Positions 13,780 through 51,073 of a stretch of 54,187 nt of DNA are shown here, piece after piece. The DNA is taken from assembly GCA_050178385.1 (NCBI GenBank), contig JBFXGD010000004.1, positions 1 to 54,187 on the forward strand, in the 5' to 3' direction. Positions within the stretch are counted from its first letter, which is position 1; every line of letters starts with the position of its first letter. The notes below the pieces were generated by a model, which searched no databases, was not told the origin of the DNA, and saw only the letters and a program-made list of their open reading frames with translations. A program made the translations under genes and the position numbers. This DNA is from Calditrichaceae bacterium. GTDB lineage: Bacteria > Calditrichota > Calditrichia > Calditrichales > JBFXGD01.

Positions 13780-13964
13780 GGATTTTTCTGTTTTAACTGC
13801 CAAAAAAGTTAAATGATTTCATGACCGATTGCAAAAAGCATTATAGAAATCATTAATTTTATGAAGGATGTGTACTGTCCCGATTGAAAAATGAGTGACA
13901 GGTTGTAATTATGGTTTAAACCTGCTAAATTTCTTAGGCATTTATTTAGAACGGATTTATTCAG

Positions 13965-15062: not shown

Positions 15063-15133
15063 GCCGGCTTAGCTAAATTGACACACTTTTAAGACATCCG
15101 GAATAAAAGATTTATTAAAAGATTAAACAGCAT

Positions 15134-16102: not shown

Positions 16103-16236
16103 AAGGTATAACTTTTATCATGCAGGACAAAAATAAATAAACAGAATTACCGGATAAGTTAAATTCGTTGTCACTTAAAATCAGAAACTCGGTGAAAAGC
16201 ATATCGCCGGTCCGTGGAACTAATTATGAGAATCAG

Positions 16237-31321: not shown

Positions 31322-31353
31322 TTCAGTTACTCCATTGGCTATTAAGTCTCTCA

Positions 31354-32529: not shown

Positions 32530-32551
32530 GTATCATATTCTTTCATAAAAG

Positions 32552-33361: not shown

Positions 33362-33386
33362 CGGAGTACTTTATCCTAAAAAGAAG

Positions 33387-33417
33387 ATAGCGGAATAGCG
33401 ATTGACTATTCCGCTAT
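33387..33417. terminator. Intra-cluster hairpin (terminator/attenuator or mRNA-stabilising stem)
   Basis: Perfect 12-bp stem ATAGCGGAATAG-7 nt-CTATTCCGCTAT just after the 33428 stop. Confidence 0.65.
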
Positions 33418-33427
33418 GAGTGAAGTG

Positions 33428-34024: not shown

Positions 34025-34126
34025 GATACTTCTCCTGTGTTTGTTTGAACAATATTGGGATTACTAAAATCTAAACTCTTTATATTTATTGCTTTCATCT
34101 TAACTGCATTTGTTCATCAATAATTT

Positions 34127-35167: not shown

Positions 35168-35178
35168 CTTCTTGCCCT

Positions 35179-36603: not shown

Positions 36604-36680
36604 TCCTAATCTATCGCAACTTTACCGGATTCCGTCATACAATAAACAAATTCACGCGCGTTAACGCTGTCTGCTGTTAA

Positions 36681-37307
36681 TTACCACTTATAGCGGTTTT
36701 GTTCGATCATTTTTTTGATCTTCTTATCGCCGATCCATACTTTCAGATTCTTCTCGAGGTGAATCAACTCAAGGTTAACCTGATAATAAACGGCTTTCTG
36801 TCCTTCGTAAGAATCCACAATGGTATTAATGCTGCCCTGAAGCATATAATCGGCGCCTGTCTCATTGGCCAGCTGTTTTGCTGTTTCAAGAGATGAAAAA
36901 CTTTGCTGGTCGAGCCGTTCCTTCCGAATTTCTTCACGTTCTTTTTCGGAAGCGACAAAATTGATCTGGCCGGAATTGATTAATTCTTTTTCAATATCTT
37001 TTATGAATAAATCCACCGGAATATGTTCACTGCTTTTATTACGAATGGTTCCTACGATGACCACGGGTTTTTCATCATTCAAATCCACATATTCGAGTAA
37101 CCACGGTTTTGAAAGAACATCACGTATCATAGCTTCCGCTGTAAGACGGGAATCGGTATCATTCCATCGTCCGCTCAGATCCGAAGTTTGATCCGCGGAC
37201 ACACGTGTGACTTTTCGTGAACTCTGGCATTGAATAAGTACCGATGAAAATAAAACCAACATACCGATAATCAGCATTCTAGAGAAAAAACTTCCTGTCT
37301 TTAACAT
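36681..37307 (-). CDS. LpoB-like lipoprotein (CsgG/LpoB fold)
   Basis: LIQC lipobox-like; DLSGRWNDTD, IRNKSSEHI, GADYMLQGSI, YYQVNLEL, KVWIG.K.IKK. Confidence 0.85.
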   Translation of the reverse strand: MLKTGSFFSRMLIIGMLVLFSSVLIQCQSSRKVTRVSADQTSDLSGRWNDTDSRLTAEAMIRDVLSKPWLLEYVDLNDEKPVVIVGTIRNKSSEHIPVDLFIKDIEKELINSGQINFVASEKEREEIRKERLDQQSFSSLETAKQLANETGADYMLQGSINTIVDSYEGQKAVYYQVNLELIHLEKNLKVWIGDKKIKKMIEQNRYKW

Positions 37308-37442
37308 AGTGACCACCTTATAGTTATAATTAGTAAATATTTTCCTGATCTGTATGAAGTTTCATGCTTTTACTCTACAAAAATATCTAAACAAATCCAA
37401 TGAAAATAATTTTATAAGAACGGACTAAGGCAAAAATAGTTT

Positions 37443-39257
37443 CTATTTATATATTTTAAAATTTGCTGTTTTGATCAAAGAGTCTTCATCCCACTCGTTG
37501 GGCTGCCAGGCCCTCACATAAATAAGAGGGTCCTTTTCGGTGAAATCTATCAATAGAAACAGGTATCCTTCATCGGAGTAAGTGGTGGATGAATAGCTTT
37601 GGCGCATTTCCACGCCATAAACCCCCTCGGTACTGTTCTTTTTTATAATGTCAAATGATCCAAAGTTAATAAATATATCCTTTTGAAGATTAAAAATTTG
37701 TTCCTGTCTTTCAAGATAATTCTTTTTTGTCAGTCGTAAATATTCAAAATCAGGCTGATTTGAAAATTTTTGATAATTAACCATATTATCAGGCAACTTC
37801 ACTGAGGCTATTTTACGTCCTACGAGGATAAGCGCTTCATCGGCAAACATTAAATCCACAGTTTCTATCTCACGGGTCTGATAAGCCGTACGATACTTTT
37901 CCACAAATTTAATAATATCCTGTCTGTTTGCCCAATCGTTGCCGTATTCGGCCTGCTCCGAGAAATGCCGGTAGAGATTTTCGGAAATACTAAGATTAAA
38001 ATCGGTTAAATTGCCCGCGTCTGAAAAATCAAGAACTAAATATTCGGTGGATTGCTTTTTAATGGACGGATAACGATGAAGCATACGGATTCTGCGTAAT
38101 TCATAACCGGAAGATGTTTTGAAAATTCCGCCGTCGATATTTTGAGAAGCTGGTTCCGCCGAATTGTATTTAAGGTAGTTGATAATTTTGTTCTTCAGAA
38201 ATGGGTCGTCAGCATATTTTTCACTTATTATTGTTTTATCTTTCATTGAAAGCAGATCTAAAAATTCAGAAGCGGACTTTAAAATAGTCTTGGAGACAGG
38301 AATTTCTTTTTCAAGCGTAAGATTCATATTCCATTTTTTTGATGCGCGGGAAGTCTGAATTTGTCCGGAATTGCCATTCTTTTTTAGATTGACGGTCTTT
38401 GCGGCATTAAATGTCGGCAGATTTACAACATTCCATAGTTCACCGACCACATTATATTCGTTACGTGATTCATAATAAGCATATTTGATGAATAGTTTTA
38501 AGGATTCAAAATTGGTGCTGGCTCCAAGCAGGCGGAAGGTCGCGATTCCGTCTCTTCCTTCCACAGCAACCTGACCTGTCCCATCCCAAAAGGTGAAATC
38601 AATAAGGGATACGTCCACTTCGTTCGAAGTGATACGGAGTGTGATTTCACGCTCCATGTCAGAGATTTTTTTATCACCGGCAAAATTAAATTTTAAATTA
38701 AGAATAATCCTGTTAATACGCGCGGGTAATTCTGTTGTATAATTGATATCCTGATATATAACGCTTTCATCCGGTAATGACTGGACAAGTAAAAGAGCAT
38801 AATAATTCAGTTTTAGCGCGAACGCTGTATTATGATTTAATTCATTTAATTCAGCTTTACGCGCTATATCTGCAATCAGTTTTTTACGTTCATCAAAAAT
38901 TTGGAAAACTTCTTTCTTGTCCAGATAACAAAACGTTTCGATTTCTCCGTTAGGCAGGGCTTTCTTTACGGTGTTGACGTTTTGGAGTGTCGCGGCGCTG
39001 TGAGTGCGTATAATAGATTTCACAGACTCATCGAGTCCGGCGGCGCTCTCCATGATTTTGCTTTCAAATGATTTTGCTACCCGAACGGCGATTTGCTCGG
39101 TCAGCTCTTCCAAAGCGCGATCACGAGATTCCCGGGCGTCACGGGCAGTGCCGGAACCGTAATAATAATTTCCACTCTGCATAATGGATTTTTTGTCAAT
39201 CTGCTGGGCAAAAAGTAATACTGACAACAAAAATGTACTGATGAAAATGATACGCAC
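37443..39257 (-). CDS. Exported protein with an N-terminal LPP20-like domain and a C-terminal NTF2-like region
   Basis: Signal peptide; YYYGSG...RALEELTEQIAVRV; C-terminal FVEKYRTAY...MFADEA...YSDEGYLFLLIDF...IYVRAWQP. Confidence 0.55.
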   Translation of the reverse strand: MRIIFISTFLLSVLLFAQQIDKKSIMQSGNYYYGSGTARDARESRDRALEELTEQIAVRVAKSFESKIMESAAGLDESVKSIIRTHSAATLQNVNTVKKALPNGEIETFCYLDKKEVFQIFDERKKLIADIARKAELNELNHNTAFALKLNYYALLLVQSLPDESVIYQDINYTTELPARINRIILNLKFNFAGDKKISDMEREITLRITSNEVDVSLIDFTFWDGTGQVAVEGRDGIATFRLLGASTNFESLKLFIKYAYYESRNEYNVVGELWNVVNLPTFNAAKTVNLKKNGNSGQIQTSRASKKWNMNLTLEKEIPVSKTILKSASEFLDLLSMKDKTIISEKYADDPFLKNKIINYLKYNSAEPASQNIDGGIFKTSSGYELRRIRMLHRYPSIKKQSTEYLVLDFSDAGNLTDFNLSISENLYRHFSEQAEYGNDWANRQDIIKFVEKYRTAYQTREIETVDLMFADEALILVGRKIASVKLPDNMVNYQKFSNQPDFEYLRLTKKNYLERQEQIFNLQKDIFINFGSFDIIKKNSTEGVYGVEMRQSYSSTTYSDEGYLFLLIDFTEKDPLIYVRAWQPNEWDEDSLIKTANFKIYK

Positions 39258-39550
39258 GCTCTGACTCCATGTTTGAACGCATTAACCTTAAAAGAAAGAA
39301 CCGGTATCTGCTAATTAGTGAAAATTTCTGAATAAATCATTATGAATTTAAACTTTATCAATTTGACTATCCATAGACTTTGATACGGTGTGCAAGAGAA
39401 TATACCATTGAAATATAATCGATTGTGAAATATGAATCAATATTGATTCTATTGCCTTTTGACCTAAGGTAAATATTCTTACAAACCCTAAATGTAAATA
39501 GAAATTAGGCATGCATTTATTCTCTCATCAGATTGGCTGTCTGTCATCGA

Positions 39551-41368
39551 TTACTTTTTATCAGTTGCTTTTTTAGAAGGACCCCCGCCAAACAATATTC
39601 CAAATTGAATATTCGCGCTTTCATTTATATTATGATCATCACGGTATTGTTGATACACAGCCTTCAGAAAAAAATGATAGTCTAACTGAATTCTGAGATC
39701 CGCGTAGTACCCGTAGGTTGTTTGTTTAACTTTATCCACCTGGTCACCATCTATCTCATTATAAAAATAGTTTTCTCCGATAAAAGCACCGGCTGATGGA
39801 TAGAGCGTTTCCCACAAGACAAATGGAGTAAATCCAAGATAGCCGGTCCAGCTATAGGTGGCCAAACTGTCTTTTTCAACCGAAGATGTGTTCAAATCTG
39901 TGGTTTTAAATCTAAAGCTGCCTCCGATCGTAAGGGGATTCAGATAAATGGAAATATCCCCGATGTAGCCGTAGTCATCAAGCGGATCAGATATTTCATT
40001 TGATTGTGTGATTTCGTTCAGCATCTCAGGGGGCAATTGCCAGTAATATCCGCCAAAAGAGATAAGTAACCCGTTGGAAATGTCGGAAATCCGACCATTA
40101 CCAAATGCGGTTAGACGGAAGAAGCGATTTCTTGTTTTGACAAGTTCATACTCGCGTTCCTTTCCTCGTGAATCAATAGAAAAGGATTTGTTTTTTGTAT
40201 CATAACCGTCCTTTTCTATGCGGATTGAATATTTACCGGGATCAAGTTCCATTTCATACATAGGAATAGATCCCCTGTACCGGTCATTGATAAAAATACT
40301 GGCTCCCGAGGTTCCTTTAACTGTGAAGAGACCATTAGGTGAAGGCGCTACACGCAGATTCAGGTCACGATCCCCGGTTACGTCAATATGGAGCGAATCG
40401 GAACGATGGCGACGCTTGCGGGCTTCAAGTTTGTACTGTCCGGCCGGGACTGTCCGCGAAATAGGGGTCGAGCCGATGTAATTGTTATCCAGATAAATCT
40501 CCGTTTCAGGGACTTTGCTGTCAATAATTAAGTTGCCCTCTTTACGAATAAGATTGGCCTGAATCGGTATGGATTTTACCGGATCATCATTCGGTACTAT
40601 TTCCATGGCATAAGTAAAAGGATGATAGTATGGTTTTTCCAGACGCAGAAGAATCCTCCCCTCGGGGACCGCGACCGGCAAATCAGGACTAAACGTGATT
40701 TCTTTATCATTGATAAATAAAAGCGCATCATCATGAGAAAGAGAAATGGTGATATAGCCAAACGTCGGGGTAAGCGTTAGTTCCTGGCTGACAGTTTTAC
40801 CATCCTGAACTTTGATGAACATTTCATGGGTGACATATCCTGCTTTGGTGATAATAAATTTCCATGTCTGAGCGCTCAGATTTTCAAAACGATATGGGCT
40901 AATTCTGTTGAAACCGGGAATTCCGTCGATCTGAATGTTGGCACCTGCGGGATTGGTCGTTAAAAGTAGATGACCTTTTCGAGAATTATACTTTGAATCA
41001 GCGGAAATTTTTATCACGAATACAGCGCGGGGGGCGAGCTGAATGCCCTCTTCCGATAATATAATTTGCTTGGGTTGAAAGCCATTATGGAATACTTCCA
41101 GCACACGTTCATCGGGAGACAAATAAATGATGTCGCGTCCGGGTTGATCATCCACTTTGACTACACCATTATACGCGTCATAACTGAATCCATCCATGTC
41201 GGATATAATACAGATAGCGGCGCAAAACCGGCCGTTTTCGTCTTTTACGCCTGTCATTTCATCTGAAGACTTTTCCGCTTTGCCAACAATTTGAAGTTGA
41301 GAGAGATTTTGAGCCTGAAGATACGCTGAAAATAATATAACAACCAATAACGTCCTTGTCATGAGCAT
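39551..41368 (-). CDS. PEGA domain-containing exported protein
   Basis: Signal peptide; repeated PEGA motifs (TNPAGANIQIDG, ETEIYLDNNYIGSTP...PAGQY, GASIFIND...PGKYSIRIEKDGY); beta-strand-rich C-terminus. Confidence 0.85.
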   Translation of the reverse strand: MLMTRTLLVVILFSAYLQAQNLSQLQIVGKAEKSSDEMTGVKDENGRFCAAICIISDMDGFSYDAYNGVVKVDDQPGRDIIYLSPDERVLEVFHNGFQPKQIILSEEGIQLAPRAVFVIKISADSKYNSRKGHLLLTTNPAGANIQIDGIPGFNRISPYRFENLSAQTWKFIITKAGYVTHEMFIKVQDGKTVSQELTLTPTFGYITISLSHDDALLFINDKEITFSPDLPVAVPEGRILLRLEKPYYHPFTYAMEIVPNDDPVKSIPIQANLIRKEGNLIIDSKVPETEIYLDNNYIGSTPISRTVPAGQYKLEARKRRHRSDSLHIDVTGDRDLNLRVAPSPNGLFTVKGTSGASIFINDRYRGSIPMYEMELDPGKYSIRIEKDGYDTKNKSFSIDSRGKEREYELVKTRNRFFRLTAFGNGRISDISNGLLISFGGYYWQLPPEMLNEITQSNEISDPLDDYGYIGDISIYLNPLTIGGSFRFKTTDLNTSSVEKDSLATYSWTGYLGFTPFVLWETLYPSAGAFIGENYFYNEIDGDQVDKVKQTTYGYYADLRIQLDYHFFLKAVYQQYRDDHNINESANIQFGILFGGGPSKKATDKK

Positions 41369-42504: not shown

Positions 42505-42599
42505 TTCTTACTTCCTACTTCTTACTTAAGGCTAAGGCACTAATTTACTGTTCTTACTCTTTTATCTTTTATCTTTTGTCTTTTTTCTTAATTTCCTAC
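42505..42599. repeat. Degenerate heptamer tandem repeats
   Basis: TTCTTAC-TTCCTAC-TTCTTAC (42505-42525), then TTCTTAC-TCTTTTA-TCTTTTA-TCTTTTG-TCTTTTT-TCTTAAT-TTCCTAC (42551-42599). Confidence 0.6.
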
Positions 42600-43891
42600 T
42601 TCCCTCCGTACCGCTTCATCTCATGACAGCCCGAAAAGCATGTTTTTCCATCTTCGGTTTCAACAAGTCGTACAGGCATTGTCCATTTGCCAAAGGATAC
42701 CTTTCCGGCGATGATATGTTCCTGATCGGAGCCATGCATATCGTGACAAAGCATACAGTTCCGTCCCTTATCCCGATTGACGTGCAGATAATGGAGATTT
42801 TGTTTTTCATCGCTGAAACCGGACGCTTCACTTCCCGTGTCTTCAATAAGCGAGGTCTCATGACAATTGAAACAGACCGCGAAGGATTCCGAATCTCCTG
42901 AAGTATAAGCGCTGTTTGGGAAGTTAGCGTTCAGCAGGGAGGTAAATTCGGATGAATGGGGAAGATGGCAGGCATCACATCCTCCATCCATAGCCGGGGG
43001 ATGGATATATTCTTTTTCTTGCAAACGATTCTTGATTTTTCCAGATCTCGAATACTCAACCGGTAGAGAAGTGTCGTGACATGTAAGACAAAGCTCCTCC
43101 CTCTGCTGATTCAACAATCCATCCACATCGGATGCATGAGCTTTATGACAACTGAGACAGGATCGCTCATCAGCAATTGCTTTATGGATTGAAATATTTT
43201 CAGATTGGTCTTCGTGGCATTCATAGCACTGTCCGGGAACCGGTGTTTTCAGCAGCGACGCGTATTGGGATGTGTGAGTATGATGACAATCAGAACATTC
43301 ACCTTCGTAAGCAGGGTGTACATTACTCAGTGTCAGCTCATCTTTCTGATCATCATGGCAATCGAAGCAAAGCTGCGGTGATTCCTTTCTCAGAAACGCC
43401 GCGAAATCGGATTGATGCGGATTGTGGCAATCTGTGCACTGATTGTTTTCCGCAGGGGGATGATTTACCGCCTTCGGATTATTATACAGATCATGGCATT
43501 TACCGCAAATCTCACCCTGGTCTGCGGCAATCAACAGCGCGGGGTTATTAGAACTGTGAACATCATGACAGGCGGTACATTCACCCGCGACAACCGGCGC
43601 ATGAACATCATCTTTTTCATGTTTTGAGTCATGACAATCATAACATAGGTACGGCATCTCGTTTAAAAGTGAAAATTCTTCGCCCTCCGAACCGGGATGA
43701 ATAAACCCGTTTGATTCGTGACAGGAAGCGCAGTCATCTTCGATGGGTGGATGAATATGTGATCGAACCAGATAGGACCCGTGACAGCCTGACGAGGTGC
43801 AGGATGGCTCCTCTTCCGCCTCCTGAGCAAAAAGAAGAGATTGATGAAAGAATAGTATAACTGTGGTATAAAATATGATCCGAACTGTCAT
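42596..43891 (-). CDS. Periplasmic multiheme c-type cytochrome (about 15 hemes)
   Basis: Signal peptide; 13 CxxCH plus CTSSGCH (Cx4CH) and CFSGCH (Cx3CH); paired HxP..CxxCHxxH / LCxxCH repeats. Confidence 0.92.
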   Translation of the reverse strand: MTVRIIFYTTVILFFHQSLLFAQEAEEEPSCTSSGCHGSYLVRSHIHPPIEDDCASCHESNGFIHPGSEGEEFSLLNEMPYLCYDCHDSKHEKDDVHAPVVAGECTACHDVHSSNNPALLIAADQGEICGKCHDLYNNPKAVNHPPAENNQCTDCHNPHQSDFAAFLRKESPQLCFDCHDDQKDELTLSNVHPAYEGECSDCHHTHTSQYASLLKTPVPGQCYECHEDQSENISIHKAIADERSCLSCHKAHASDVDGLLNQQREELCLTCHDTSLPVEYSRSGKIKNRLQEKEYIHPPAMDGGCDACHLPHSSEFTSLLNANFPNSAYTSGDSESFAVCFNCHETSLIEDTGSEASGFSDEKQNLHYLHVNRDKGRNCMLCHDMHGSDQEHIIAGKVSFGKWTMPVRLVETEDGKTCFSGCHEMKRYGGK

Positions 43892-43901
43892 GAGTTCATC
43901 C

Positions 43902-45869
43902 TTAGAATTTTCTTTCAACGCGCAAAAATCCGGCGTTATATGTTATCTCTTCCCCTGAAAAATCACGCCTGTAGGTTTCCAGCCCCACGGTCAGATACAT
44001 TTGCCTGAAGCGTGTCGTAAATTCACTCCGGAGAGTGGCAAGATTGAGATCAATGCCTCTTCCATCCTGAAAACGGTAGCTTGTTTCCAAACTGATTTTT
44101 GAGATACGGGAAAGACGGTATAAGAACCGGCCGGTGAGATCCCTGAATTTCTGATCTTCTTCATTTTCCGTTAATGAATAATTCCGGATATTTCCTGAGA
44201 GAGAAACATTCAGCCTGTTAAACAAATATCTGTTAAAGGAGATATAATACCGCACTGAATGATACGGAACGATGTTGCTGTTGTAGTCGTCAAGCTCAAC
44301 TCCGCCGGAAACCGGACCTTTGGACAATCGCGTGCCGAAGACTCTCTCAGAAACCGTTTTGAGTACCGCGGAATCCGAGCCCTCAGAATTATGTATATCC
44401 TGTTCGTATGAACGAAAATAGAATTCGGCAATCTGGTTAAAAACGGTTATTCTTACACCGAATGCATTACTGAATATATCGTATTGATATGATGTCTGAA
44501 GTGTCACTGTGTAATCCACCAGAACTTTTGTTCCATCTGCTATCTGACCACCCGGCAGGCGCTGAATTTCCAGAAAATCTCCGCGTATGATTATGATATA
44601 ATCGAGATTTTCCTGATAAGGGACCAATCCGGTTTCATCTGTGACTACTATACTCGCCGGATCTGCATAAGGATTCTCCAGCAATATCGTCTGTCCGTCA
44701 AAAAGCGTAATCGCTTCATTGATGATTCTCGACGCGCTTGGCATGCTGTTGCGATTTTCATTGCGATTTCTGAGCTCGTAGTCGATGGAAAGATTGCCGG
44801 TCGGTATTTTTTTTAAATAATTGAACCCGATGGTGCCGGTATTGGTAAACTGATTGAATCCGCTCTGATTAAGATCGATATACTCATAATGAGCAAAGCT
44901 TCTGAGACTTTGGTACAACTGGTGTTCAATTCTTCCGGAGATATTATGCTGGTCGGAGCTGAAAGCTTTCTGGTCAAATGAAGCAAACCGGTAATCGCCT
45001 GAAAAATCCAGATTATACGGTAAAACAAGTCTGACATTCTCACTGGCTGTCAGCCGGTCAAAGTCTTCGCTTCCGGTCTGATTATAATACCATATCAGCG
45101 AATTGAGATTATAATTCCGGTCTTCATCCAGGAATAAATTATCCCGCAGATTGACGCTTGATATTTTATTGTGTACGGATGAGTTTTGAGCGTATTCACG
45201 TGAATAATCTTCATACGAATAGGTTAAGCGGTGGTCGTCGTAACGGCTGAATGATTTACTGAATTCGGTTCTGAAATTATCCCTGGTATTCACAAAATCA
45301 CGCCCGGTCTGTAATTCCTTCTGTTCCCAGTTCTCATGAGAATAATTAATGCTAACCGGGACTATGTCATTGCGGTACGAGGCACCTCCGCCTATATCTG
45401 TTCTGTAGTTCTCAACATTGGTAAGGTATTCGCGGTTCACATAGCTGTGGCTGAAATTTGTAAATAGGTTAAATGTAAAGGGGCGTTTATTAAAAAATGA
45501 TGTATGGATATTTATTTTTTCACCTGTTTTGGTTTCCGTGCGGTTCGGAACAACCAAAAACTGATCCCGCCGGATCCCGGGATTGAAATCCATATCGGCG
45601 TTTATCACCACAAAATTGGGGTGCCAGACATAGCTTTTTGATCTTAACAGTATCTCTCCGGAAAAAATTGTGGATTCGGGTCTGTCTGATAATCCGGAAG
45701 GATAAACCGTTTCCTGCGAACGGAACTCACTTTCCATAACAACAGAACCGTTTACAGATTGCAGATGCCATTCCCCGATCGAATAAAGATCACCGTCCTG
45801 TCCCGTAGAAGGAGACAGCATCATCAAAATAAGAACCGGCACTAAACCAATTATTTTCCGTGACATCAT
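43902..45869 (-). CDS. Outer-membrane beta-barrel protein (putative cytochrome-conduit porin)
   Basis: Signal peptide, alternating amphipathic beta-strands rich in Y/F/S/N/R, C-terminal Phe (FLRVERKF), flanked by multiheme cytochromes. Confidence 0.8.
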   Translation of the reverse strand: MMSRKIIGLVPVLILMMLSPSTGQDGDLYSIGEWHLQSVNGSVVMESEFRSQETVYPSGLSDRPESTIFSGEILLRSKSYVWHPNFVVINADMDFNPGIRRDQFLVVPNRTETKTGEKINIHTSFFNKRPFTFNLFTNFSHSYVNREYLTNVENYRTDIGGGASYRNDIVPVSINYSHENWEQKELQTGRDFVNTRDNFRTEFSKSFSRYDDHRLTYSYEDYSREYAQNSSVHNKISSVNLRDNLFLDEDRNYNLNSLIWYYNQTGSEDFDRLTASENVRLVLPYNLDFSGDYRFASFDQKAFSSDQHNISGRIEHQLYQSLRSFAHYEYIDLNQSGFNQFTNTGTIGFNYLKKIPTGNLSIDYELRNRNENRNSMPSASRIINEAITLFDGQTILLENPYADPASIVVTDETGLVPYQENLDYIIIIRGDFLEIQRLPGGQIADGTKVLVDYTVTLQTSYQYDIFSNAFGVRITVFNQIAEFYFRSYEQDIHNSEGSDSAVLKTVSERVFGTRLSKGPVSGGVELDDYNSNIVPYHSVRYYISFNRYLFNRLNVSLSGNIRNYSLTENEEDQKFRDLTGRFLYRLSRISKISLETSYRFQDGRGIDLNLATLRSEFTTRFRQMYLTVGLETYRRDFSGEEITYNAGFLRVERKF

Positions 45870-45905
45870 TTTTTACCTTAAAAATGATAAAACTAATCCG
45901 TAAAA

Positions 45906-46466
45906 TTACCTGAATAAATAGGCATCTTCTCCGCCGTGCGGATTATGGCAATCCAGGCAATTTGTGTCGCCCAGATCCTGATGCGCTTCATTTTTGAAAA
46001 CATCCTCGCTCTGATGGCAGAAAAGACATAACTCTTGTCCGGTCCGAACCAGAAGATGCTCATTTTTTGACAAATGCGGATTATGACATTCCGTACAAAA
46101 TCCGGCGCCCACCGGTCCATGTAGCGCCTCGTAATTCCCGCTGAAGTCTTCATGGCACTGATAGCAAAGTCCCGGCTGTTCATCGATCAGGGCGTTTCCT
46201 TTTTCGGGAACATGGCAGGCATCACATGATTTTTCGGCATAAACCGGGTGGATTGTCATTTTCGGGCGATCGGATTTTGGAGAAACAGGAATACCTGAAT
46301 CATTGACGGTTACCGAGACCGTATCCATGGTCACCGATTGTTTCGCTTCAGGATCCGGCACTCCGTCAAAAAATGTCGAGAGTACTTTATGACGGCTTTC
46401 AGGATGACAAGCAACCAAAAGCGCGATGGCCGCCAGCAGAAAGATGAAAGTAATATGAGTTCGCAA
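45906..46466 (-). CDS. Pentaheme c-type cytochrome lipoprotein
   Basis: LVAC lipobox, FFDGVP motif, 5 CxxCH (CDACH, CYQCH, CTECH, CLFCH, CLDCH); TTG start. Confidence 0.88.
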   Translation of the reverse strand: MRTHITFIFLLAAIALLVACHPESRHKVLSTFFDGVPDPEAKQSVTMDTVSVTVNDSGIPVSPKSDRPKMTIHPVYAEKSCDACHVPEKGNALIDEQPGLCYQCHEDFSGNYEALHGPVGAGFCTECHNPHLSKNEHLLVRTGQELCLFCHQSEDVFKNEAHQDLGDTNCLDCHNPHGGEDAYLFR

Positions 46467-46540
46467 GGCTGTTCCCTGAAATTTGGTTTAGGAACAATTA
46501 TTCAGACAATACATTGTTCTCGGTTATAAGCCGTTAAATG

Positions 46541-47614
46541 TTATTCCTTCACGTCAACAAATCCGTAAACGTTGATCTTATCCGGCCCGTACTGATTGGT
46601 CACAAAAATCAGATATTGTAATTCAAATCCGGGATGAACATATTTTCGAAAATACTCAAGATTATCATAATCTATTACTACTTTGGCGGGCAGCCACATA
46701 TCACCGGGGCCTTTGTAACTGCCACCGAAAAACATCAGTAATTGATCTTCTTCATTAAAAAGCTGGACATTTTCAAAACCGGCGTCAACTACGAATAAAT
46801 TGGATTGTTTATCCACCGATATTCCTTTTGGACGTACAAATTGCCCCGCGTTTTTTCCGTAGCTGCCTATCGAACGCAGAAATTCACCTTCAGTTGAAAA
46901 TACCTTTATCCGGAAATCACCGAAATCACTCACATAAACCTGATTGTTTTTTACAAAAAGATTTGTCGGGGAGTAGAGGTTGCTCTCTCCGGTATTTTCA
47001 TCATCGGCAGGGATCGACCGTATCAGTTTGTGGTCTTCTTTTGAAAACGCCAGAATCTTATGGCTTTTTATATCGCTGATCCAAATTAGCTCATCGGTTA
47101 CAAAAACATCAGTTGGCCTCTCGATGTCACTACTGCCGAAACTGTTAACAAATTTGCCGTTTTCATCAAAAATGACGATATCGCCTCTTTCCGAATCAGC
47201 CACATAAACCAGTCCGTCAACATCCACAAAACAGTTGATCGGTTTCTTGAGCTGACCCTTTCCGGCCGGTTTCAGATAATCAAATGAACGGGTGTTCAGA
47301 TCGATGATTTCGAGACCGCCAAGCATCGTGTCACAGACATAAATTCTGCCGCGATATATAGCCAGTCCGTAGGGTTTGACGATTGACCGGCTTTCATCTT
47401 CACCCAGCACATACCGGGCAAACGCGGATCGCCGCCCGGTGATGTCGCTTGAGCTGCTGATACGGGTTAAAAACTGAATTCTCGTCGTTGCCGGAGGTGC
47501 GGGGTAGATGACGACATTATCATCATTGACAGGCTTATTGAATGACCTGCTGCATGAAATAGTCATCATTACCATAAGAAAAGACACTACACTTAACTGA
47601 AATAATTTCTTCAT
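46541..47614 (-). CDS. NHL-repeat beta-propeller lipoprotein
   Basis: TISC lipobox; YPAPPATTRIQF; NHL repeats (GQFVRPKGISVD..NLFVVD, PGDMWLPA). Confidence 0.88.
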   Translation of the reverse strand: MKKLFQLSVVSFLMVMMTISCSRSFNKPVNDDNVVIYPAPPATTRIQFLTRISSSSDITGRRSAFARYVLGEDESRSIVKPYGLAIYRGRIYVCDTMLGGLEIIDLNTRSFDYLKPAGKGQLKKPINCFVDVDGLVYVADSERGDIVIFDENGKFVNSFGSSDIERPTDVFVTDELIWISDIKSHKILAFSKEDHKLIRSIPADDENTGESNLYSPTNLFVKNNQVYVSDFGDFRIKVFSTEGEFLRSIGSYGKNAGQFVRPKGISVDKQSNLFVVDAGFENVQLFNEEDQLLMFFGGSYKGPGDMWLPAKVVIDYDNLEYFRKYVHPGFELQYLIFVTNQYGPDKINVYGFVDVKE

Positions 47615-47703
47615 CGAATTACACTCATATTCAGTATATTGAATTCACAATCCGTCTGGATTAACCGTTTAGCTCCGCCGCGGCGAATGTTATCATCCTT
47701 GAT

Positions 47704-48327
47704 TTATTTATTATGACAAGTCAGGCACAGGGCGCTCGATGAATTAGAGATTACGAGAAGTTTGCTGAAACCCTGGCTGTTATGAACATCATGACAGGAA
47801 GCGCACTGCACTTTGCCGCCGATTAACAGATCGTTGCTGATGGTTCCGCCCATGCCTGAATTCGCGGTGGAAGGATCATACAATCCACCGTCTGAATTTG
47901 CCAGCGCGGCGTCGTATGTGAATGAAACCGGATGATCATCACTAAGATCGGTACCTACAAGGCTGTTTCCTGTGATAAAATGGCTTCCACCTGTCTGCCC
48001 GCCGTAATTGTCAACGGCTATTGTACCGTCGTGACAGCTCATACAAAGTTTTGATGAGGCATCCGGCTGACCCACAGTGGCGTTCATGGACGCGCTGCTG
48101 TATGGAGTGAATGTGGCGGAGGTCATCTCATGATTCCATAGCGGGGCGTCACTGACAGATACATCGGCATTGTGAGTGGTGTGGCAGACGATGCAGATCT
48201 GGTCACTTGTATTCCAGGCGGCGGATGAAAAATCGTGTGCAGACCCAACAATGGACTGAGCGAACGCGCTACCGCCGATCATAAAGAATAAAATCACGGC
48301 CAGGTTAAAAATTGATAATCGTTTCAT
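47704..48327 (-). CDS. Tetraheme c-type cytochrome, OmcE-like (putative nanowire subunit)
   Basis: Signal peptide AFA-QS; SI..S.HDFS, QICIVCHTTHNA, PLWN, LCMSCHDG, GTDLSDDHPVSF, VQCASCHDVH, LCLTCHNK terminus. Confidence 0.85.
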   Translation of the reverse strand: MKRLSIFNLAVILFFMIGGSAFAQSIVGSAHDFSSAAWNTSDQICIVCHTTHNADVSVSDAPLWNHEMTSATFTPYSSASMNATVGQPDASSKLCMSCHDGTIAVDNYGGQTGGSHFITGNSLVGTDLSDDHPVSFTYDAALANSDGGLYDPSTANSGMGGTISNDLLIGGKVQCASCHDVHNSQGFSKLLVISNSSSALCLTCHNK

Positions 48328-48375
48328 GACTGTTCCTTTCAATTGTTTGTTTTTACAATATGAAAAAAATTCCTG

Positions 48376-50070
48376 CTAATAAGTTTTTGGGTTATGATCT
48401 TCACCATGACATACAAGGTAACACGTGCCTCTGGTAGTCCCCTGATCAATAAATTCCAACCGCGTACCGGAGGGAAAAACAACGGATATATCAAAATTAA
48501 TAAGATGTGTATTGTTGGTCGTGTTCCCCTGTAAACTACTGATACCGTGAGGATCATGGCAGACATTGCAGGGGGTATCTTCTGCAACAATATGTCTCCA
48601 GTGGACTTTTCTTGCGAAACTTCCTGAGCTGTTTATAATTGTGTTACGGTCATGGCATTCATAACATAACCTGTAGTTGTCATAGGATTCCGTTGTATAA
48701 TCCGCTGTGACATACTGAAATTTCAATATCTGTGGATATATGGATCCGTGAGGTCCTGCCGGAGCATCCGTGCCGTCACTGGCATGGCAATTTGTACAGT
48801 AAATGATGCTGGAGGCGGTATAGGGTGATATCATTGAATTAACGTTTGGATTTTTTCCGGCCGCTTCGATCGGGTGATAAGAGGGATTCCCCGGATCATA
48901 CTCGAGACGTACATTAGATTGTTCAATCAATCTGATGGTCGGGCTGCCGGGTTTATCAGGACTGTCGGCATGGCATTTATAGCAAAGTTCGTATTGATAT
49001 TGTACCGGATCGACCGCTGTTCCGTTTGTGTTTAATCCGCTTGTGCCGGCAATGAATCCGTTGGCGTTTGGCGCGCTGGCAGCAGCGCTTCTGCTGGCAT
49101 GGGGGTTGTGACAGTCTTCGCACTCCACATGCCTGTTTTGAACAGGAATATTTTCTCCCGGATCGTGAACGCCGGCATAGTTATAAACATCATGAATATA
49201 TGGTTTGGTGGCAACAATTGTCTGAATGTTTTTAGCGGCGACATTCCCGTTATGACAGTCGAGACAGTTGTTCTCTTCAGTGAGTGAATTCAACAGACGG
49301 TCATGACTCTCTGAGTTGTGTGGATTATGACAGTTTTCACAGCCGTTTTCCGCCACATTCGTGTAGGGTGTATGAAACCATGGATCGTTGCCGGAACCGT
49401 TCCACGTCGCGATCGAATTTTTGTGTGATGAATTGGTCCAGTCAGTTTTCTGATGACAATAGAGACAAAGATCAGAATTTTGATTAGTAGCAACCAGAAA
49501 TTGTCCGTATAAATCAATATGCGGGTCATGGCAGGAAGTGCACTGAACGCGCTCGTTTGCCAGTTTAACCGGTCCGGTAAGAACGGCGGGATCGCTTAGT
49601 TCACCGTCCGCGGCGGATAAAGCGGAATTATACAAAAATGATACCGGGTGATCATCCGATAAATCAGTGGATAAATTTTTATTTCCCGATGGCATCATGG
49701 TAATTCCGCCGGTGAATTCAATGGGAGCCGGCCTACTTAAAACATTACCAAGAGCGATGGTTCCGTCATGACAGGAAAGACACAACAGGGAAGCGCCGTC
49801 CGGCTGACCGGGTGACGCCTGAGCGGTGGAACTGCCGTAAATTGTATAGGTTAATCCGGGATCTTCACGATTCCATAAGGGTTGCCGTGGGCTGCTTTTA
49901 TGCGGAGTATGACAAAAAACACAGATTTCAGATTCACTGCTGGCTTTAACCGTTCCTGGCCCGGTGGCGGATAAATTATGAACCGAATTCACAATTGATT
50001 GTGATAACGTGAAACAGGGAATCATCAACAGAAAGGTAAAAGTAATCAGTAACTTATTTTTCATCGTCAT
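48376..50070 (-). CDS. Multiheme c-type cytochrome (about 12 hemes) with an N-terminal OmcE-like module
   Basis: Signal peptide; 11 CxxCH plus CYLVCH; the first four hemes sit in a module collinear with the downstream tetraheme protein. Confidence 0.9.
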   Translation of the reverse strand: MTMKNKLLITFTFLLMIPCFTLSQSIVNSVHNLSATGPGTVKASSESEICVFCHTPHKSSPRQPLWNREDPGLTYTIYGSSTAQASPGQPDGASLLCLSCHDGTIALGNVLSRPAPIEFTGGITMMPSGNKNLSTDLSDDHPVSFLYNSALSAADGELSDPAVLTGPVKLANERVQCTSCHDPHIDLYGQFLVATNQNSDLCLYCHQKTDWTNSSHKNSIATWNGSGNDPWFHTPYTNVAENGCENCHNPHNSESHDRLLNSLTEENNCLDCHNGNVAAKNIQTIVATKPYIHDVYNYAGVHDPGENIPVQNRHVECEDCHNPHASRSAAASAPNANGFIAGTSGLNTNGTAVDPVQYQYELCYKCHADSPDKPGSPTIRLIEQSNVRLEYDPGNPSYHPIEAAGKNPNVNSMISPYTASSIIYCTNCHASDGTDAPAGPHGSIYPQILKFQYVTADYTTESYDNYRLCYECHDRNTIINSSGSFARKVHWRHIVAEDTPCNVCHDPHGISSLQGNTTNNTHLINFDISVVFPSGTRLEFIDQGTTRGTCYLVCHGEDHNPKTY

Positions 50071-51073
50071 CCTTGTTTGTCAGTTCAAACATCTGTATTC
50101 TCGCGTTATAGCTGTCTGCTACATAGATGCGGTCATGGTGATCAATAAAAATTCCGGAGGGAAGCCAGAATTCACCATGCCCCCGGCCCTGTTTCCCGAA
50201 ATAGGAGAGAAAATTTCCTTCTTTATCGAAAATCTGGACTGTATGAAATAGCCCGTCAACCACATAAATATGTCCGCGCGAGTCAGTAGCGATACCTTTC
50301 GGGGATGAAAAATACCCGCTGGCGTCTCCTGCTTCGCCAAAAATATTAACGAGCTCACCGGTTTTATTAAAAACCTGAATCCTGAAATTCATTGAGTCAA
50401 CGATATACACATTACCAATATCATCGATCGTGAGAAAAGTGGGAAAATTGAATTCACCGGCTCCGGTGCCCCGGTGTCCGATGGTCCTCAGCAAATTGCC
50501 CTCTTTGTCCAATACCTGAATTCGGTGCTTCCCGGTTTCCGCCACCCAGATTTCATTAGTTAAATCGGAAAAACCGATTCCCGTCGGCCTGTCAATTTTT
50601 AATGATGGATTTAATAATCCTGATTTTCCCGATGTAATATTTTGTATGTAAATTTGATTGATTTTTGAATCGGTAAGAAGCAGTGAATATGAATTAAACC
50701 TGCACATGCAGATAAGTGACGGAAAACCGGATTGATTATTCTGATAGTAATTTTTGATCTGACCTGAATTTTGATCAATAAATATCAGCGTCTTTGACCC
50801 CTGATCCAGCACCCAGATGGAATCAGGATTCTCCGTGAAAACAGAAACCGGTCTTATTAACGGGCGGAAATCATTTCCAAAAATAAAATTGAACATTAAT
50901 TTGGCGAAACCGGGTTTAGCCTTCAAATCTTCGGATGATGAAAACTGTCCCGTCCATTTAACGGTGCGGTAATCGGAGTCAGATGTAACGGACTGATTCT
51001 CGGCCGCCATGTTCAGCACCGGTAATAAAATCAGAATGGTAAGTGATACGATCCAAAAATTCCGTTTTATCAA
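50054..51073 (-). CDS. NHL-repeat beta-propeller exported protein
   Basis: NHL repeats (GEFNFPT, VYIVDSMNFRIQVF, FSSPKGIATDSRGHIYVVD, GEFWLPSGIFID); probable TTG start at 51073 with aggga RBS. Confidence 0.9.
   Translation of the reverse strand: MIKRNFWIVSLTILILLPVLNMAAENQSVTSDSDYRTVKWTGQFSSSEDLKAKPGFAKLMFNFIFGNDFRPLIRPVSVFTENPDSIWVLDQGSKTLIFIDQNSGQIKNYYQNNQSGFPSLICMCRFNSYSLLLTDSKINQIYIQNITSGKSGLLNPSLKIDRPTGIGFSDLTNEIWVAETGKHRIQVLDKEGNLLRTIGHRGTGAGEFNFPTFLTIDDIGNVYIVDSMNFRIQVFNKTGELVNIFGEAGDASGYFSSPKGIATDSRGHIYVVDGLFHTVQIFDKEGNFLSYFGKQGRGHGEFWLPSGIFIDHHDRIYVADSYNARIQMFELTNKDDDEK

What the first reader, a model, noticed from the sequence alone, without database searches (positions are those of the whole stretch)
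42596..51073. Seven-gene porin-cytochrome plus OmcE-type nanowire operon: candidate extracellular electron transfer conduit
Seen: co-oriented, tightly spaced NHL propeller, 12-heme, 4-heme, NHL lipoprotein, 5-heme lipoprotein, beta-barrel and 15-heme genes (36 heme-binding motifs in total), all with export signals. Established: porin-cytochrome modules (MtrCAB, Pcc) cross the outer membrane, and Geobacter OmcE polymerises into tetraheme filaments. Inference: one operon encodes the periplasmic wire, OM channel, anchor, assembly factors and filament, in a genomic context that does not look like a model metal reducer. No quinol oxidase or cytochrome maturation genes are in the window, so the direction of electron flow is unknown.
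Basis: partly seen in the sequence, partly recalled or inferred. Interest (0 to 1): 0.9.

Follow-up and report, generated by a model that had tools for sequence, protein, structure and literature searches.

The report
Calditrichota OmcE/Uet-type cytochrome conduit cluster
A Calditrichota bacterium carries seven adjacent genes for haem proteins, two propeller proteins and a very large outer-membrane barrel; they match a widespread, recently described type of "electron wiring" cluster related to Geobacter's OmcE nanowires, so the system is real but not new.

Summary

The 212-aa tetrahaem g3 is a full-length OmcE-family protein (PDB 7TFS, E 8.6e-28). The 12-haem g2 starts with a second OmcE-like module (E 4.8e-32). 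g7 and g5 are MtrA-like. g6 folds as a barrel of about 28-30 strands.

The same gene set recurs across about a dozen phyla, so this is a member of a known kind. It resembles the uet cluster of Tenderiales and is a sister to the canonical Desulfuromonadia omcE cluster, not its orthologue. That cluster lacks a g2-like gene and has an unrelated barrel sequence, and its OmcE groups with the g2 module rather than with g3.

Nothing here shows filament formation, the barrel-cytochrome complex or the direction of electron flow. The complex prediction gave no verdict.

This scan has already noted this kind of cluster 92 times in at least 80 genomes.

The least-explored point is g2 as a possible connector between barrel and wire.

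The parts
50054..51073 (-). g1: secreted six-bladed NHL beta-propeller (339 aa from the TTG at 51073). Its stop overlaps the g2 start by 17 nt.
   Evidence: Pfam NHL 1.1e-22 and DUF5128 1.4e-17. Alternative starts and overlap. A g1-like gene sits directly upstream of a g2-like gene in the related loci.
48376..50070 (-). g2: 564-aa cytochrome with 12 haem sites (11 CxxCH + 1 CxxxCH). It is an OmcE-like N-terminal module followed by an 8-haem tail.
   Evidence: Motifs. 7103 hits among the 8000 candidates scored; the 120 listed are 61-93% identical and mostly about 560 aa (548-604). Exactly 24 invariant His in 40 sequences. AF2 model pLDDT 72.8.
49447..50070 (-). g2 residues 1-208: signal peptide plus OmcE-like tetrahaem module.
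   Evidence: phmmer to 7TFS: E 4.8e-32, 114.7 bits, residues 6-208. Foldseek to 7tfs: E 9.9e-7, TMt 0.62, 40% identity over 204 columns. All 8 Cys and 8 candidate axial His conserved in 37 of 37 g2-like modules.
48376..49446 (-). g2 residues 209-564: 8-haem C-terminal tail, weakly MtrA-like.
   Evidence: Pfam Cytochrome_C7, MtrC-MtrF_II-IV and NrfB-like hits. Foldseek to 6r2q_A: E 0.13, TMt 0.45 over 321 columns, which is weak. 16 invariant His for 8 sites.
47704..48342 (-). g3: OmcE-family tetrahaem cytochrome (212 aa; probable start ATG 48327; signal peptide ..AFA|QSIV). Candidate extracellular or filament subunit.
   Evidence: 7TFS E 8.6e-28 and 9YUQ E 1.3e-23, both full length. Four CxxCH and four further His conserved. 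5152 cluster representatives at E<=1e-3.
46541..47614 (-). g4: NHL beta-propeller lipoprotein (lipobox ..TISC). It always follows the tetrahaem gene in relatives.
   Evidence: Pfam NHL 1.3e-12 and DUF5128 1.1e-12. N-terminus. The order 3-4 is seen in nearly all loci.
45906..46466 (-). g5: 5-haem lipoprotein cytochrome (lipobox ..LVAC), MtrA/DmsE-like haem packing.
   Evidence: Motifs. 6r2q_A E 1.5e-14. TIGR03508 2.2e-14, below cut-off. Present in 32 of 45 long loci, directly before the barrel.
43902..45869 (-). g6: 655-aa outer-membrane beta-barrel of about 28-30 strands. No Pfam family.
   Evidence: AF2 pLDDT 90.0, pTM 0.69, strand list. Foldseek finds only generic large barrels; MtrB has the best TMq at 0.42. 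VIA: MtrB Z 17.0, not separated from other barrels. No PDB sequence hit. Found in 33 of 86 genomes of the phylum.
44484..44720 (-). g6 residues 384-462: the most conserved segment of the barrel protein. A small inserted domain between long strands, of unknown role.
   Evidence: Five of the eight invariant columns of A1 (D423, Y424, R437, I443, Y453) lie here. Only short strands fall in residues 390-446. Weak sub-threshold NCBIfam hit, 27.5 bits against a cut-off of 60.
42596..43918 (-). g7: MtrA/DmsE-like periplasmic cytochrome with 15 haem sites (probable start ATG 43891). Its start overlaps the barrel stop by 17 nt.
   Evidence: 6r2q_A E 8.3e-17. TIGR03508 8.9e-42, 143 bits, below the 192 cut-off. 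Variant motifs conserved. Present in 22 of 45 long loci.

Best explanation
The seven genes form one conserved cluster, probably an operon. It most likely builds a cytochrome pathway across the outer membrane that ends in OmcE-family proteins on the cell surface.

Proposed working, with the status of each step:
1. All products are exported by Sec, and the cytochromes receive haem in the periplasm from the Ccm system encoded elsewhere in the genome. The genes are shown; the step is inferred.
2. The MtrA-like 15-haem g7 collects electrons from periplasmic or inner-membrane carriers, for example the NrfD-linked 13-haem module on contig C2. Inferred.
3. The g6 barrel of about 28-30 strands lets a haem wire cross the outer membrane, either by sheathing g7, g5 or the tail of g2 as MtrB sheathes MtrA, or by serving as the exit pore for folded OmcE-type subunits, or both. 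Inferred by analogy.
4. The lipoprotein g5 sits at the barrel. Inferred from its lipobox and its constant position before the barrel gene.
5. g3, and the OmcE-like module of g2, lie outside the cell and join through the His-haem cross-coordination known for OmcE. g3 may polymerise. Inferred from the conserved ligands only.
6. The two NHL propellers act as assembly or scaffold factors. Inferred from conserved gene pairing only.

The cluster belongs to the widespread tetrahaem / NHL / large barrel / NHL / 'undecahaem' type, which is uet-like and a sister of the canonical omcE nanowire cluster. Electron flow is probably outward in this heterotroph-like genome, but that was not tested.
For: Gene structure and haem sites.

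Homology and fold:
- g3 and g2 residues 6-208 match the OmcE filament subunit 7TFS (8.6e-28 and 4.8e-32) and the D. soudanensis OmcE 9YUQ.
- The g2 model matches 7tfs with TMt 0.62.
- All 8 Cys and 8 candidate axial His are conserved in 37 of 37 g3-like and 37 of 37 g2-like modules.
- g7 and g5 match MtrA of 6R2Q (8.3e-17 and 1.5e-14).
- g6 folds confidently as a very large barrel. MtrB has the best TM-score and the top Z, though the margin is small.

Synteny. The loci were found with an OmcE-family query, so g3 or g2 is present by construction. Of 45 loci of at least 14 kb:
- 38 have the barrel;
- 31 have the core five (g1, g2, g3, g4, barrel);
- 16 have all seven.
Record titles name Calditrichota, Ignavibacteria, Bacteroidota, Gemmatimonadota, Proteobacteria, Desulfobacterota-type taxa, Verrucomicrobiota, Planctomycetota, Nitrospirota, Acidobacteriota, Myxococcota and Spirochaetota.

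Genome context:
- 27 frames with at least 3 CxxCH.
- CcmF/CcmC-type genes.
- Four NrfD-family genes, one next to a 13-haem gene.

Literature (passages and sections read):
- The omcE clusters of Desulfuromonadia hold two multihaem cytochromes, two propeller lipoproteins, OmcE and a large barrel, 'putatively a secretion pore or anchor' (PMC13712944).
- The uet cluster has a tetrahaem, a 28-strand barrel of about 5 nm, two NHL proteins and an 11-CXXCH cytochrome (10.1101/2022.05.06.490989).
Against: - No experiment or RNA data exist for this organism.
- g3 is not an orthologue of a proven filament former. A true OmcE orthologue (L114) scores 185.8 bits to 7TFS, against 100.9 for g3. In the module tree the canonical OmcE clade sits with the g2-module clade (SH-aLRT 86), apart from the g3-like sequences.
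- g3-like proteins carry a ninth conserved His (WNH; 97% of 37). This His is Arg in 7TFS, in 9YUQ and in the eight canonical-type OmcE loci listed (L090, L095-L098, L100, L102, L103). Its meaning for polymerisation is unknown.
- The barrel has no detectable sequence relation to MtrB, nor to the barrel of the canonical omcE cluster (the A1 HMM found no hit at 1e-3; hhalign probability 1.35%).
- g7 is absent next to the barrel in the closest relatives L003, L005, L016, L019 and L022, so the MtrA-like partner is not fixed.
- The promoter and terminator scans were no better than shuffles, so the single-operon reading rests on spacing alone.
Confidence: 0.7

Rival explanations
1. A porin-cytochrome conduit without a nanowire. 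The barrel, g7 and g5 form an Mtr/Pcc-like complex. g3 and g2 are surface-bound terminal reductases, monomers or short oligomers, and do not form a micrometre-long polymer.
For: g3 lies outside the clade of the two experimentally shown filament formers and scores only 100.9 bits to 7TFS. g3-like proteins have a ninth conserved His that could satisfy the otherwise shared haem within the chain. This is the '9 His, 4 haems' property that PMC13712944 proposes for a non-propagating anchor. OmcE-family sequences are very numerous (5152 cluster representatives), and PMC13712944 cautions that similarity alone does not show a wire.
Against: The N-terminal His and all other ligands of the OmcE fold are fully conserved. 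The gene neighbourhood (propeller lipoprotein plus very large barrel) is the criterion used in PMC13712944 to pick likely wire formers. I do not know from any call where the ninth His sits in the fold.
Confidence: 0.3
2. The system works inward. It takes electrons up from a solid donor (Fe(II) minerals, a cathode or a partner cell), as proposed for the uet cluster of 'Ca. Tenderia electrophaga'.
For: The uet cluster has the same kinds of parts and is proposed to carry electrons from a cathode to cbb3 oxidases (10.1101/2022.05.06.490989, passages). Multihaem wires are reversible in principle (general knowledge).
Against: The window encodes heterotroph-type functions: acetyl-CoA synthetase, glycerol kinase, glycerol-3-phosphate and proline dehydrogenases, and a TRAP transporter. 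I did not look for carbon-fixation genes or terminal oxidases in the genome, so this is weak.
Confidence: 0.15
3. The barrel is only a secretion pore or usher for folded OmcE-family subunits, analogous to chaperone-usher pili. It carries no electrons itself. The NHL lipoproteins act as periplasmic chaperones.
For: PMC13712944 discusses this porin/usher model for OmcE and OmcS. Among structural matches the ushers FimD and PapC score Z 12.8 and 12.5. A barrel of about 28-30 strands is wider than the 26-strand MtrB; that strand count is quoted from the uet preprint.
Against: The MtrA-like g7 overlaps the barrel gene by 17 nt, and a lipoprotein cytochrome precedes the barrel in 32 of 45 loci. That is the classic layout of a conduit. 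The two roles do not exclude each other.
Confidence: 0.2
4. A purely periplasmic or outer-membrane redox network for a soluble substrate, with no extracellular electron transfer.
For: No localisation data exist. All cytochromes mature in the periplasm (general knowledge).
Against: Homology to the extracellular OmcE; the dedicated giant barrel; and conserved linkage across about a dozen phyla with lipoprotein cytochromes.
Confidence: 0.05

Closest known systems
uet (undecahaem electron transfer) cluster uetABCDEFGHIJ of 'Candidatus Tenderia electrophaga' and Tenderiales (bioRxiv 10.1101/2022.05.06.490989; passages read)
   Same: Same kinds of parts: a tetrahaem cytochrome predicted to be extracellular (UetA ~ g3); a 28-strand barrel with a pore of about 5 nm (UetC ~ g6); two NHL propellers (UetH/I ~ g4/g1); and a cytochrome with eleven CXXCH motifs (UetJ ~ g2, which has 11 CxxCH plus one CxxxCH). 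The authors also suggest that UetA and UetJ interact and that one may polymerise.
   Different: uet also has a prolyl isomerase, three trihaem c7 proteins and a cupredoxin, none of which is in the window. The window has a 5-haem lipoprotein and an MtrA-like 15-haem protein that the passages read do not list for uet. uet is proposed to take electrons up. I could not fetch Uet sequences, so homology is matched by description only.
Canonical omcE nanowire gene cluster of Desulfuromonadia (OmcE filament PDB 7TFS; D. soudanensis OmcE bundles, PDB 9YUQ; PMC13712944, sections 8, 9 and passages read)
   Same: An OmcE-family tetrahaem flanked by NHL propeller genes, an MtrA-like multihaem cytochrome (g7-like, about 200-230 bits), and a large outer-membrane protein. 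All four CxxCH and four distal His are shared.
   Different: In 6 of 6 canonical loci examined (L114-L119) there is no g2-like fusion protein. The second cytochrome is an 8-haem protein with only weak g5 similarity. The protein of about 760 aa at the barrel position is not detectably related to g6 (no A1 HMM hit; hhalign probability 1.35%). The clusters sit beside purD/resB and glycosyltransferases. The same bacterial family also carries the window-type cluster separately (6 of 6 regions, L108-L113), so the two are paralogous systems.
MtrCAB of Shewanella (PDB 6R2Q)
   Same: A periplasmic MtrA-like multihaem cytochrome gene coupled to a large barrel gene, plus a lipoprotein cytochrome. MtrB is the nominally best structural match of g6 (TMq 0.42; Z 17.0).
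   Different: No sequence similarity between g6 and MtrB. About 28-30 strands against 26 for MtrB (the MtrB figure is quoted). No MtrC-type decahaem. The two propellers and the OmcE-family proteins have no Mtr counterpart.
Geobacter porin-cytochrome (OmaB-OmbB-OmcB) and Ext conduits (PMC4282303 abstract in search listing; Ext details recalled)
   Same: The layout of lipoprotein cytochrome, barrel and periplasmic multihaem cytochrome. A 5-haem lipoprotein next to the barrel recalls ExtF/ExtC/ExtK (recalled, not tested).
   Different: Those clusters are not described with OmcE-family genes or paired NHL propellers.
OmcS companion (osc) cluster of G. sulfurreducens (Shen et al. 2025, not held; described in PMC13194489 and PMC12977616, passages)
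   Same: The same logic: a filament subunit, a conserved paralogue of that subunit (GSU2501) always kept with the machinery, and proteins proposed for folding and secretion through the outer membrane.
   Different: An unrelated hexahaem family. The components were not compared by sequence here.

Membership tests
OmcE family of tetrahaem cytochromes (7TFS type) | A protein of about 200-230 aa with four CxxCH motifs that aligns with OmcE over its full length | tested here: met
   g3 vs 7tfs_A: E 8.6e-28, residues 15-212 against 10-232. vs 9yuq_N: E 1.3e-23.
OmcE family of tetrahaem cytochromes (7TFS type) | The four additional His that PMC13712944 reports as conserved haem ligands | tested here: met
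   H36, H57, H137 and H187 of g3 align with His in 7TFS and are conserved in 37 of 37 g3-like and 37 of 37 g2-like modules. That these are the axial ligands is inferred from the paper's statement, not from coordinates.
OmcE family of tetrahaem cytochromes (7TFS type) | Orthology with an experimentally shown filament former | tested here: not met
   The canonical OmcE clade (6 rows, support 99) groups with the g2-module clade (86), not with g3-like rows. g3 scores 100.9 bits to 7TFS, against 185.8 for L114.
OmcE family of tetrahaem cytochromes (7TFS type) | Polymerisation with inter-subunit His-haem coordination | not testable with these tools
   Needs a structure with haems or an experiment. 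No oligomer prediction was run.
Canonical omcE gene cluster (PMC13712944) | OmcE subunit plus two beta-propeller lipoproteins plus large barrel plus two multihaem cytochromes | tested here: inconclusive
   All classes are present in the window. However, g1 has no lipobox, there are three further cytochromes rather than two, and the barrel is not detectably homologous to the canonical one.
uet cluster (Tenderiales) | Tetrahaem, 28-strand barrel, two NHL proteins, cytochrome with 11 CXXCH | tested here: met
   Matched by description only: g3 has 4 motifs, g2 has 11 CxxCH, g1 and g4 are NHL proteins, and g6 has about 28-30 strands. Compared.
uet cluster (Tenderiales) | Sequence homology to UetA, UetC and UetJ; presence of UetB (PPIase), UetD/E/G (trihaems) and UetF (cupredoxin) | not tested
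   Uet sequences could not be fetched. No PPIase, c7 trihaem or cupredoxin gene lies in 41.8-51.9 kb.
MtrCAB / porin-cytochrome conduits | Periplasmic MtrA/DmsE-type multihaem cytochrome | tested here: met
   g7 vs 6r2q_A: 8.3e-17. TIGR03508: 8.9e-42, but 143 bits is below the curated 192, so g7 is a relative and not a family member by NCBI's cut-off.
MtrCAB / porin-cytochrome conduits | MtrB/OmbB-type barrel that sheathes the cytochrome | tested here: inconclusive
   The barrel fold is confident. MtrB is the best match but is tied with unrelated barrels. There is no sequence match. Whether it sheathes a cytochrome was not established.
MtrCAB / porin-cytochrome conduits | Surface-exposed lipoprotein cytochrome | not testable with these tools
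   g5 has a canonical lipobox. Which face of the outer membrane it occupies cannot be told from sequence here.

The most novel reading that the evidence does not exclude
g2 and its family (the 'undecahaem' of uet-type clusters) is the missing connector of OmcE-type wires.

Its N-terminal module is a bona fide OmcE unit with the same open 'donate one His, accept one His' valence, so it can start or cap a g3 polymer. Its self-contained 8-haem, weakly MtrA-like tail reaches into or through the giant barrel. Together these would give the filament both its membrane anchor and its electron entry point.

The canonical OmcE would then be a tail-less descendant or sibling of this module.

Supporting pieces:
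- The N-module matches 7TFS better than g3 does.
- There are exactly 24 invariant His for 12 haem sites, split 8 + 16.
- The g2-module clade is sister to the canonical OmcE clade.
- g2 is kept in 36 of 45 long loci, where g1 lies directly upstream.
- PMC13712944 states that no anchor or tip candidate is encoded in the canonical OmcE operons.

Probability: 0.25. Interest if true: 0.7.

Novelty: new member of a known kind. Interest (0 to 1): 0.35.

Why it matters
Calditrichota and their FCB-group relatives are common in sediments and engineered anoxic systems. A conserved outer-membrane cytochrome system in 33 of 86 species genomes of the phylum suggests that many of them can exchange electrons with minerals, humics, electrodes or partner cells. 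That would change how their role in iron and carbon cycling is modelled.

For the nanowire field, reviews list membrane anchoring and the electron entry and exit points of cytochrome wires as open questions (PMC12307469). The widespread cluster type seen here carries a built-in candidate for that role, g2, which the canonical Geobacter omcE cluster lacks. It could therefore be a better system in which to address the question.

The comparison also warns against annotating every such cluster as 'the omcE nanowire cluster'. The two types are paralogous and coexist in one bacterial family.

Tried and rejected
1. Complex prediction: barrel residues 28-655 with g7 residues 73-440, using alignments A1 and A4. 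The score was 0.00 in both runs and controls were not run: no verdict. g7 had to be cut to fit the 1000-residue limit. Barrel with g5, with the g2 tail or with g4 was not tried, because the cap is one job.

2. Co-evolution of the g2 N-module with its cognate g3. Cognate identity was 0.426 against 0.423 for non-cognate pairs, and 267 of 2000 permutations were as high: no signal.

3. Promoter and terminator scan of 41.5-52 kb. It found 27 promoter-like sites against 22.4 +/- 4.7 in shuffles, and 13 terminator-like sites against 9.5 +/- 3.3: uninformative.

4. Expression: no RNA holder was listed among the public runs.

5. Barrel homology to the canonical omcE-cluster barrel. The A1 HMM found none at 1e-3, and hhalign gave probability 1.35%. 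This does not exclude a common origin, because barrels diverge fast.

6. Sequence search of g6 against PDB: no hit at E<=10. Foldseek and VIA give only generic barrel matches.

The taxonomy therefore rests on named relatives and on earlier scan notes.

8. Papers not held: Shen et al. 2025 (PMC11845295) and Wang et al. 2022 (PMC9357133). What I say about the osc machinery and the OmcE structure therefore comes second-hand from PMC13194489, PMC12977616, PMC12954529 and PMC12307469.

9. I considered that L041 or L108 might hold the true Geobacter OmcE. They do not (61.7 and 46.9 bits to 7TFS). This led to the finding that there are two cluster types.

10. Searches for prior descriptions of an OmcE-like module fused to a longer cytochrome. 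The terms 'OmcE-like', 'OmcE homolog' and 'OmcE domain' returned only PMC13712944 (with its preprint) and the peat preprint. Neither, in the passages I read, describes the fusion. Supplements were not read.

11. The G. sulfurreducens OmcO/OmcP region may be the window-type cluster (recalled idea). I ran a literature search but did not pursue it.

Full report
**What is there.** Seven ORFs lie head to tail on the minus strand between 42596 and 51073. The spacings are -17, 33, 89, 74, 36 and -17 nt. The nearest neighbours are 140 nt downstream and 295 nt upstream.

The four cytochrome genes hold 33 CxxCH motifs. They also hold two CxxxCH motifs and one CxxxxCH motif. Of the 38 CxxCH words in all six frames of the 54-kb window, 34 fall inside this 8.5-kb span.

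g1 and g4 are NHL propellers. g4 and g5 have lipoboxes. g2, g3, g6 and g7 have ordinary signal-peptide-like N-termini. g1 has a hydrophobic N-terminus without a Cys (read by eye, with no predictor).

**What the parts are.**
- **g3** (212 aa) aligns over its whole length with the subunit of the Geobacter OmcE filament (7TFS, E 8.6e-28). It also aligns with the Desulfuromonas soudanensis OmcE of the bundled filaments (9YUQ, 1.3e-23).
- **g2.** Residues 6-208 match the same two structures slightly better (4.8e-32 and 5.9e-25). g2 is therefore an OmcE-like module fused to an 8-haem tail, not a plain periplasmic wire. An AlphaFold2 model of g2 (pLDDT 72.8) has 7tfs as its only significant Foldseek match (E 9.9e-7, TMt 0.62, 40% identity over 204 columns). 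MtrA comes weakly second (E 0.13, TMt 0.45 over 321 columns).
- **g7 and g5** match chain A of the Mtr complex 6R2Q (8.3e-17 and 1.5e-14). That chain A is MtrA is recalled, not from a call. g7 also matches the DmsE/MtrA family model, but below its cut-off.
- **g6** has no Pfam or PDB sequence match. With a 59-sequence alignment it folds confidently (pLDDT 90.0, pTM 0.69) into a barrel of about 28-30 long strands. A small, highly conserved inserted domain sits around residues 384-462. Structure searches return only generic large barrels. MtrB has the best TM-score (0.42) and the top Z (17.0, 427 residues aligned, rmsd 9.5), but it is not separated from unrelated barrels such as CymA (16.6) and Cir (15.6).

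**Whose genome.**
- The closest named relatives of g2 and g3 are Calditrichaeota, Calditrichia and Calditrichaceae MAGs, up to 71% identity for g3. Earlier notes of this scan on the same genome also call it Calditrichota.
- The assembly is 3.89 Mb in 320 contigs and 94% complete.
- It has CcmF/CcmC-type maturation genes and no ResB.
- It has four NrfD-family genes, one beside a 13-haem gene on contig C2.

**Is the set co-conserved?** I scanned one genome per species with an OmcE-family alignment (A2). I kept 75 loci. I called ORFs in them and scored these against the seven window proteins and a barrel HMM. Because the anchor was an OmcE-family hit, the presence of g3 or g2 is partly by construction.

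Among the 45 loci of at least 14 kb:

| Gene family | Loci with it (of 45) |
|---|---|
| g1-like | 38 |
| g2-like | 36 |
| g3-like | 42 |
| g4-like | 37 |
| g5-like | 32 |
| barrel | 38 |
| g7-like | 22 |
| core five (g1, g2, g3, g4, barrel) | 31 |
| all seven | 16 |

Several of the remaining loci are cut by contig ends.

Two blocks recur together in most of these loci: g1 then g2, and g3 then g4 then (g5) then barrel. The window's order, 1-2-3-4-5-B-7, is shared by Calditrichales, Melioribacteraceae, Chitinophagaceae and Chlorobiota-titled loci. Elsewhere the order is 3-4-(5)-B-1-2 with g7 before or after. That second group includes Proteobacteria, Desulfobacterota-type, Nitrospirota, Acidobacteriota, Myxococcota, Planctomycetota and Verrucomicrobiota loci.

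Within the window's own phylum the barrel is found in 33 of 86 species genomes (23 of 53 high-quality ones). This is a patchy, accessory distribution.

**How it relates to what is known.**
- PMC13712944 (sections 8 and 9 and passages read) describes the omcE clusters of Desulfuromonadia. The smallest always contain two multihaem cytochromes, two propeller lipoproteins, OmcE and a large barrel. The paper reports OmcE homologues with such neighbours in five phyla.
- The Tenderiales preprint (passages read) describes the uet cluster. It has a tetrahaem (UetA), a 28-strand barrel of about 5 nm (UetC), two NHL proteins (UetH/I) and a cytochrome with eleven CXXCH motifs (UetJ). It also has a PPIase, three trihaems and a cupredoxin. 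The authors propose electron uptake.
- A 2026 peat preprint (section 9 read) describes syntenic porin-'scaffold'-cytochrome clusters with OmcE-like cytochromes in Acidobacteriota and Verrucomicrobiota.
- PMC6137239 (passages) had already noted a pcc-like system in Caldithrix.
- This scan itself holds 92 notes on such clusters in at least 80 genomes.

The kind is therefore known.

**A distinction worth making.** I recovered both cluster types from genomes of the family around a MAG titled 'uncultured Geobacter sp.'.

*Canonical type.* Six of six regions, chosen for an OmcE with a 7TFS-like N-terminus, showed PurD, ResB, a 9-haem g7-like gene, an 8-haem gene, NHL, OmcE, NHL, a protein of about 760 aa without a Pfam family, and then a glycosyltransferase. 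The OmcE of L114 scores 185.8 bits (E 8e-54) to 7TFS. These clusters have no g2-like gene. Their 760-aa protein is not hit by the g6 HMM, and hhalign gives probability 1.35%.

*Window type.* Six of six other regions, chosen for paired hits about 6 kb apart, showed 7-3-4-5-B-1-2, the window's type. One of them has g2 split over two frames. Their tetrahaems score only 46.9-61.7 bits to 7TFS.

*Tree.* I built a quick maximum-likelihood tree of 91 OmcE modules.
- The g2 modules form one clade (SH-aLRT 96).
- The six canonical OmcE form another (99). It sits next to the g2 clade (86).
- The g3-like sequences form an unresolved grade on the other side.

The window's cluster is thus a paralogous sister of the canonical omcE cluster, and by description it is closer to uet. 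g3 is an OmcE-family protein but not an orthologue of a proven wire.

**Details of the OmcE modules.**
- In 37 paired loci, all 8 Cys and 8 His that align with the haem-binding and distal His of OmcE are conserved in 37 of 37 g3-like and 37 of 37 g2-like modules.
- g3-like proteins carry a ninth His (WNH, g3 H70) in 97% of cases. g2 modules have it in 3%. 7TFS, 9YUQ and the eight canonical-type OmcE loci listed (L090, L095-L098, L100, L102, L103) have Arg at this position. I cannot say what it does. It matters because PMC13712944 argues that a 4-haem, 9-His OmcE-like protein would act as a non-propagating anchor.
- g2 has exactly 24 invariant His for 12 haem sites. Eight lie in the OmcE-like module and 16 in the tail. 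The tail is therefore self-contained, and the module keeps the same ligand set as a wire subunit.
- I found no sign that the g2 module co-evolves with its cognate g3.

**Most likely working.** A Sec- and Ccm-dependent set of cytochromes carries electrons from periplasmic donors across the outer membrane at the giant barrel. They then pass to OmcE-family proteins outside the cell. The two propellers serve as assembly or scaffold factors.
- Shown: the genes, their motifs, their homologies, the barrel fold and the conservation of the set.
- Inferred: every localisation, every contact, polymerisation of g3 and the direction of flow.

The one complex prediction I could run (barrel with a trimmed g7) gave no verdict. 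No RNA data were found.

**Verdict.** This is a real, well-conserved cluster of a known kind in a phylum where it has been little discussed. It scores low on novelty. Its one interesting loose end is the role of the g2/'undecahaem' family as a possible anchor and electron entry of OmcE-type wires.

Noticed in passing
window 44484-44720 (g6 residues 384-462): This is the most conserved stretch of the barrel protein. It is a small domain inserted between long strands, and it holds five of the eight invariant columns of the 59-sequence alignment. It gives a weak, sub-threshold hit to a phage tail-tube model (27.5 bits against a cut-off of 60). It could be a plug or a docking domain.
   Followed up: partly
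window 48133-48135 (g3 His70, 'WNH'): A ninth His is conserved in 97% of 37 g3-like proteins. It is Arg in g2 modules, in 7TFS and 9YUQ, and in the canonical OmcE orthologues. Its significance for polymerisation is unknown.
   Followed up: partly
P0186 (1400 aa), P0187 (965 aa), P0188, P0190: Some proteins in the representative library contain two to four tandem OmcE-like modules in one chain. These look like covalently linked 'pre-polymerised' versions of the unit.
   Followed up: no
L006, L010, L012 (FCB-group loci): These clusters carry extra OmcE-like paralogues, some with five CxxCH. There is also an unexamined gap of about 3 kb between the g2-like and g3-like genes. The five-haem forms recall the 5-haem OmcE-like proteins discussed in PMC13712944.
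   Followed up: no
window 29852-41368, minus strand: Downstream of the cluster lies a co-oriented run of envelope-type genes: two LPP20-like lipoproteins, an LpoB-like protein, a 605-aa PEGA-domain protein, a CarboxypepD_reg-domain protein and several ORFs without a Pfam family. Whether this run is linked to the cytochrome cluster was not examined.
   Followed up: no
window 12715-17334: Two radical-SAM/SPASM genes flank a GT2 glycosyltransferase and a gene for an LPG-synthase-TM-like membrane protein. This is unrelated to the finding.
   Followed up: no
genome contigs C7:13339-22017 and C84:7412-10815: Further dense multihaem clusters lie elsewhere in the genome. One has frames with 19, 12, 11, 9 and 3 CxxCH; another is a pair of frames with 22 and 20.
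   Followed up: no
window 42596-51073 in public runs: Near-identical DNA is held by coded runs X2 (0.34 of sampled words; labelled landfill metagenome) and X3 (0.24). These come from two studies other than that of the best holder X1 (0.94), which may be the source sample.
   Followed up: partly
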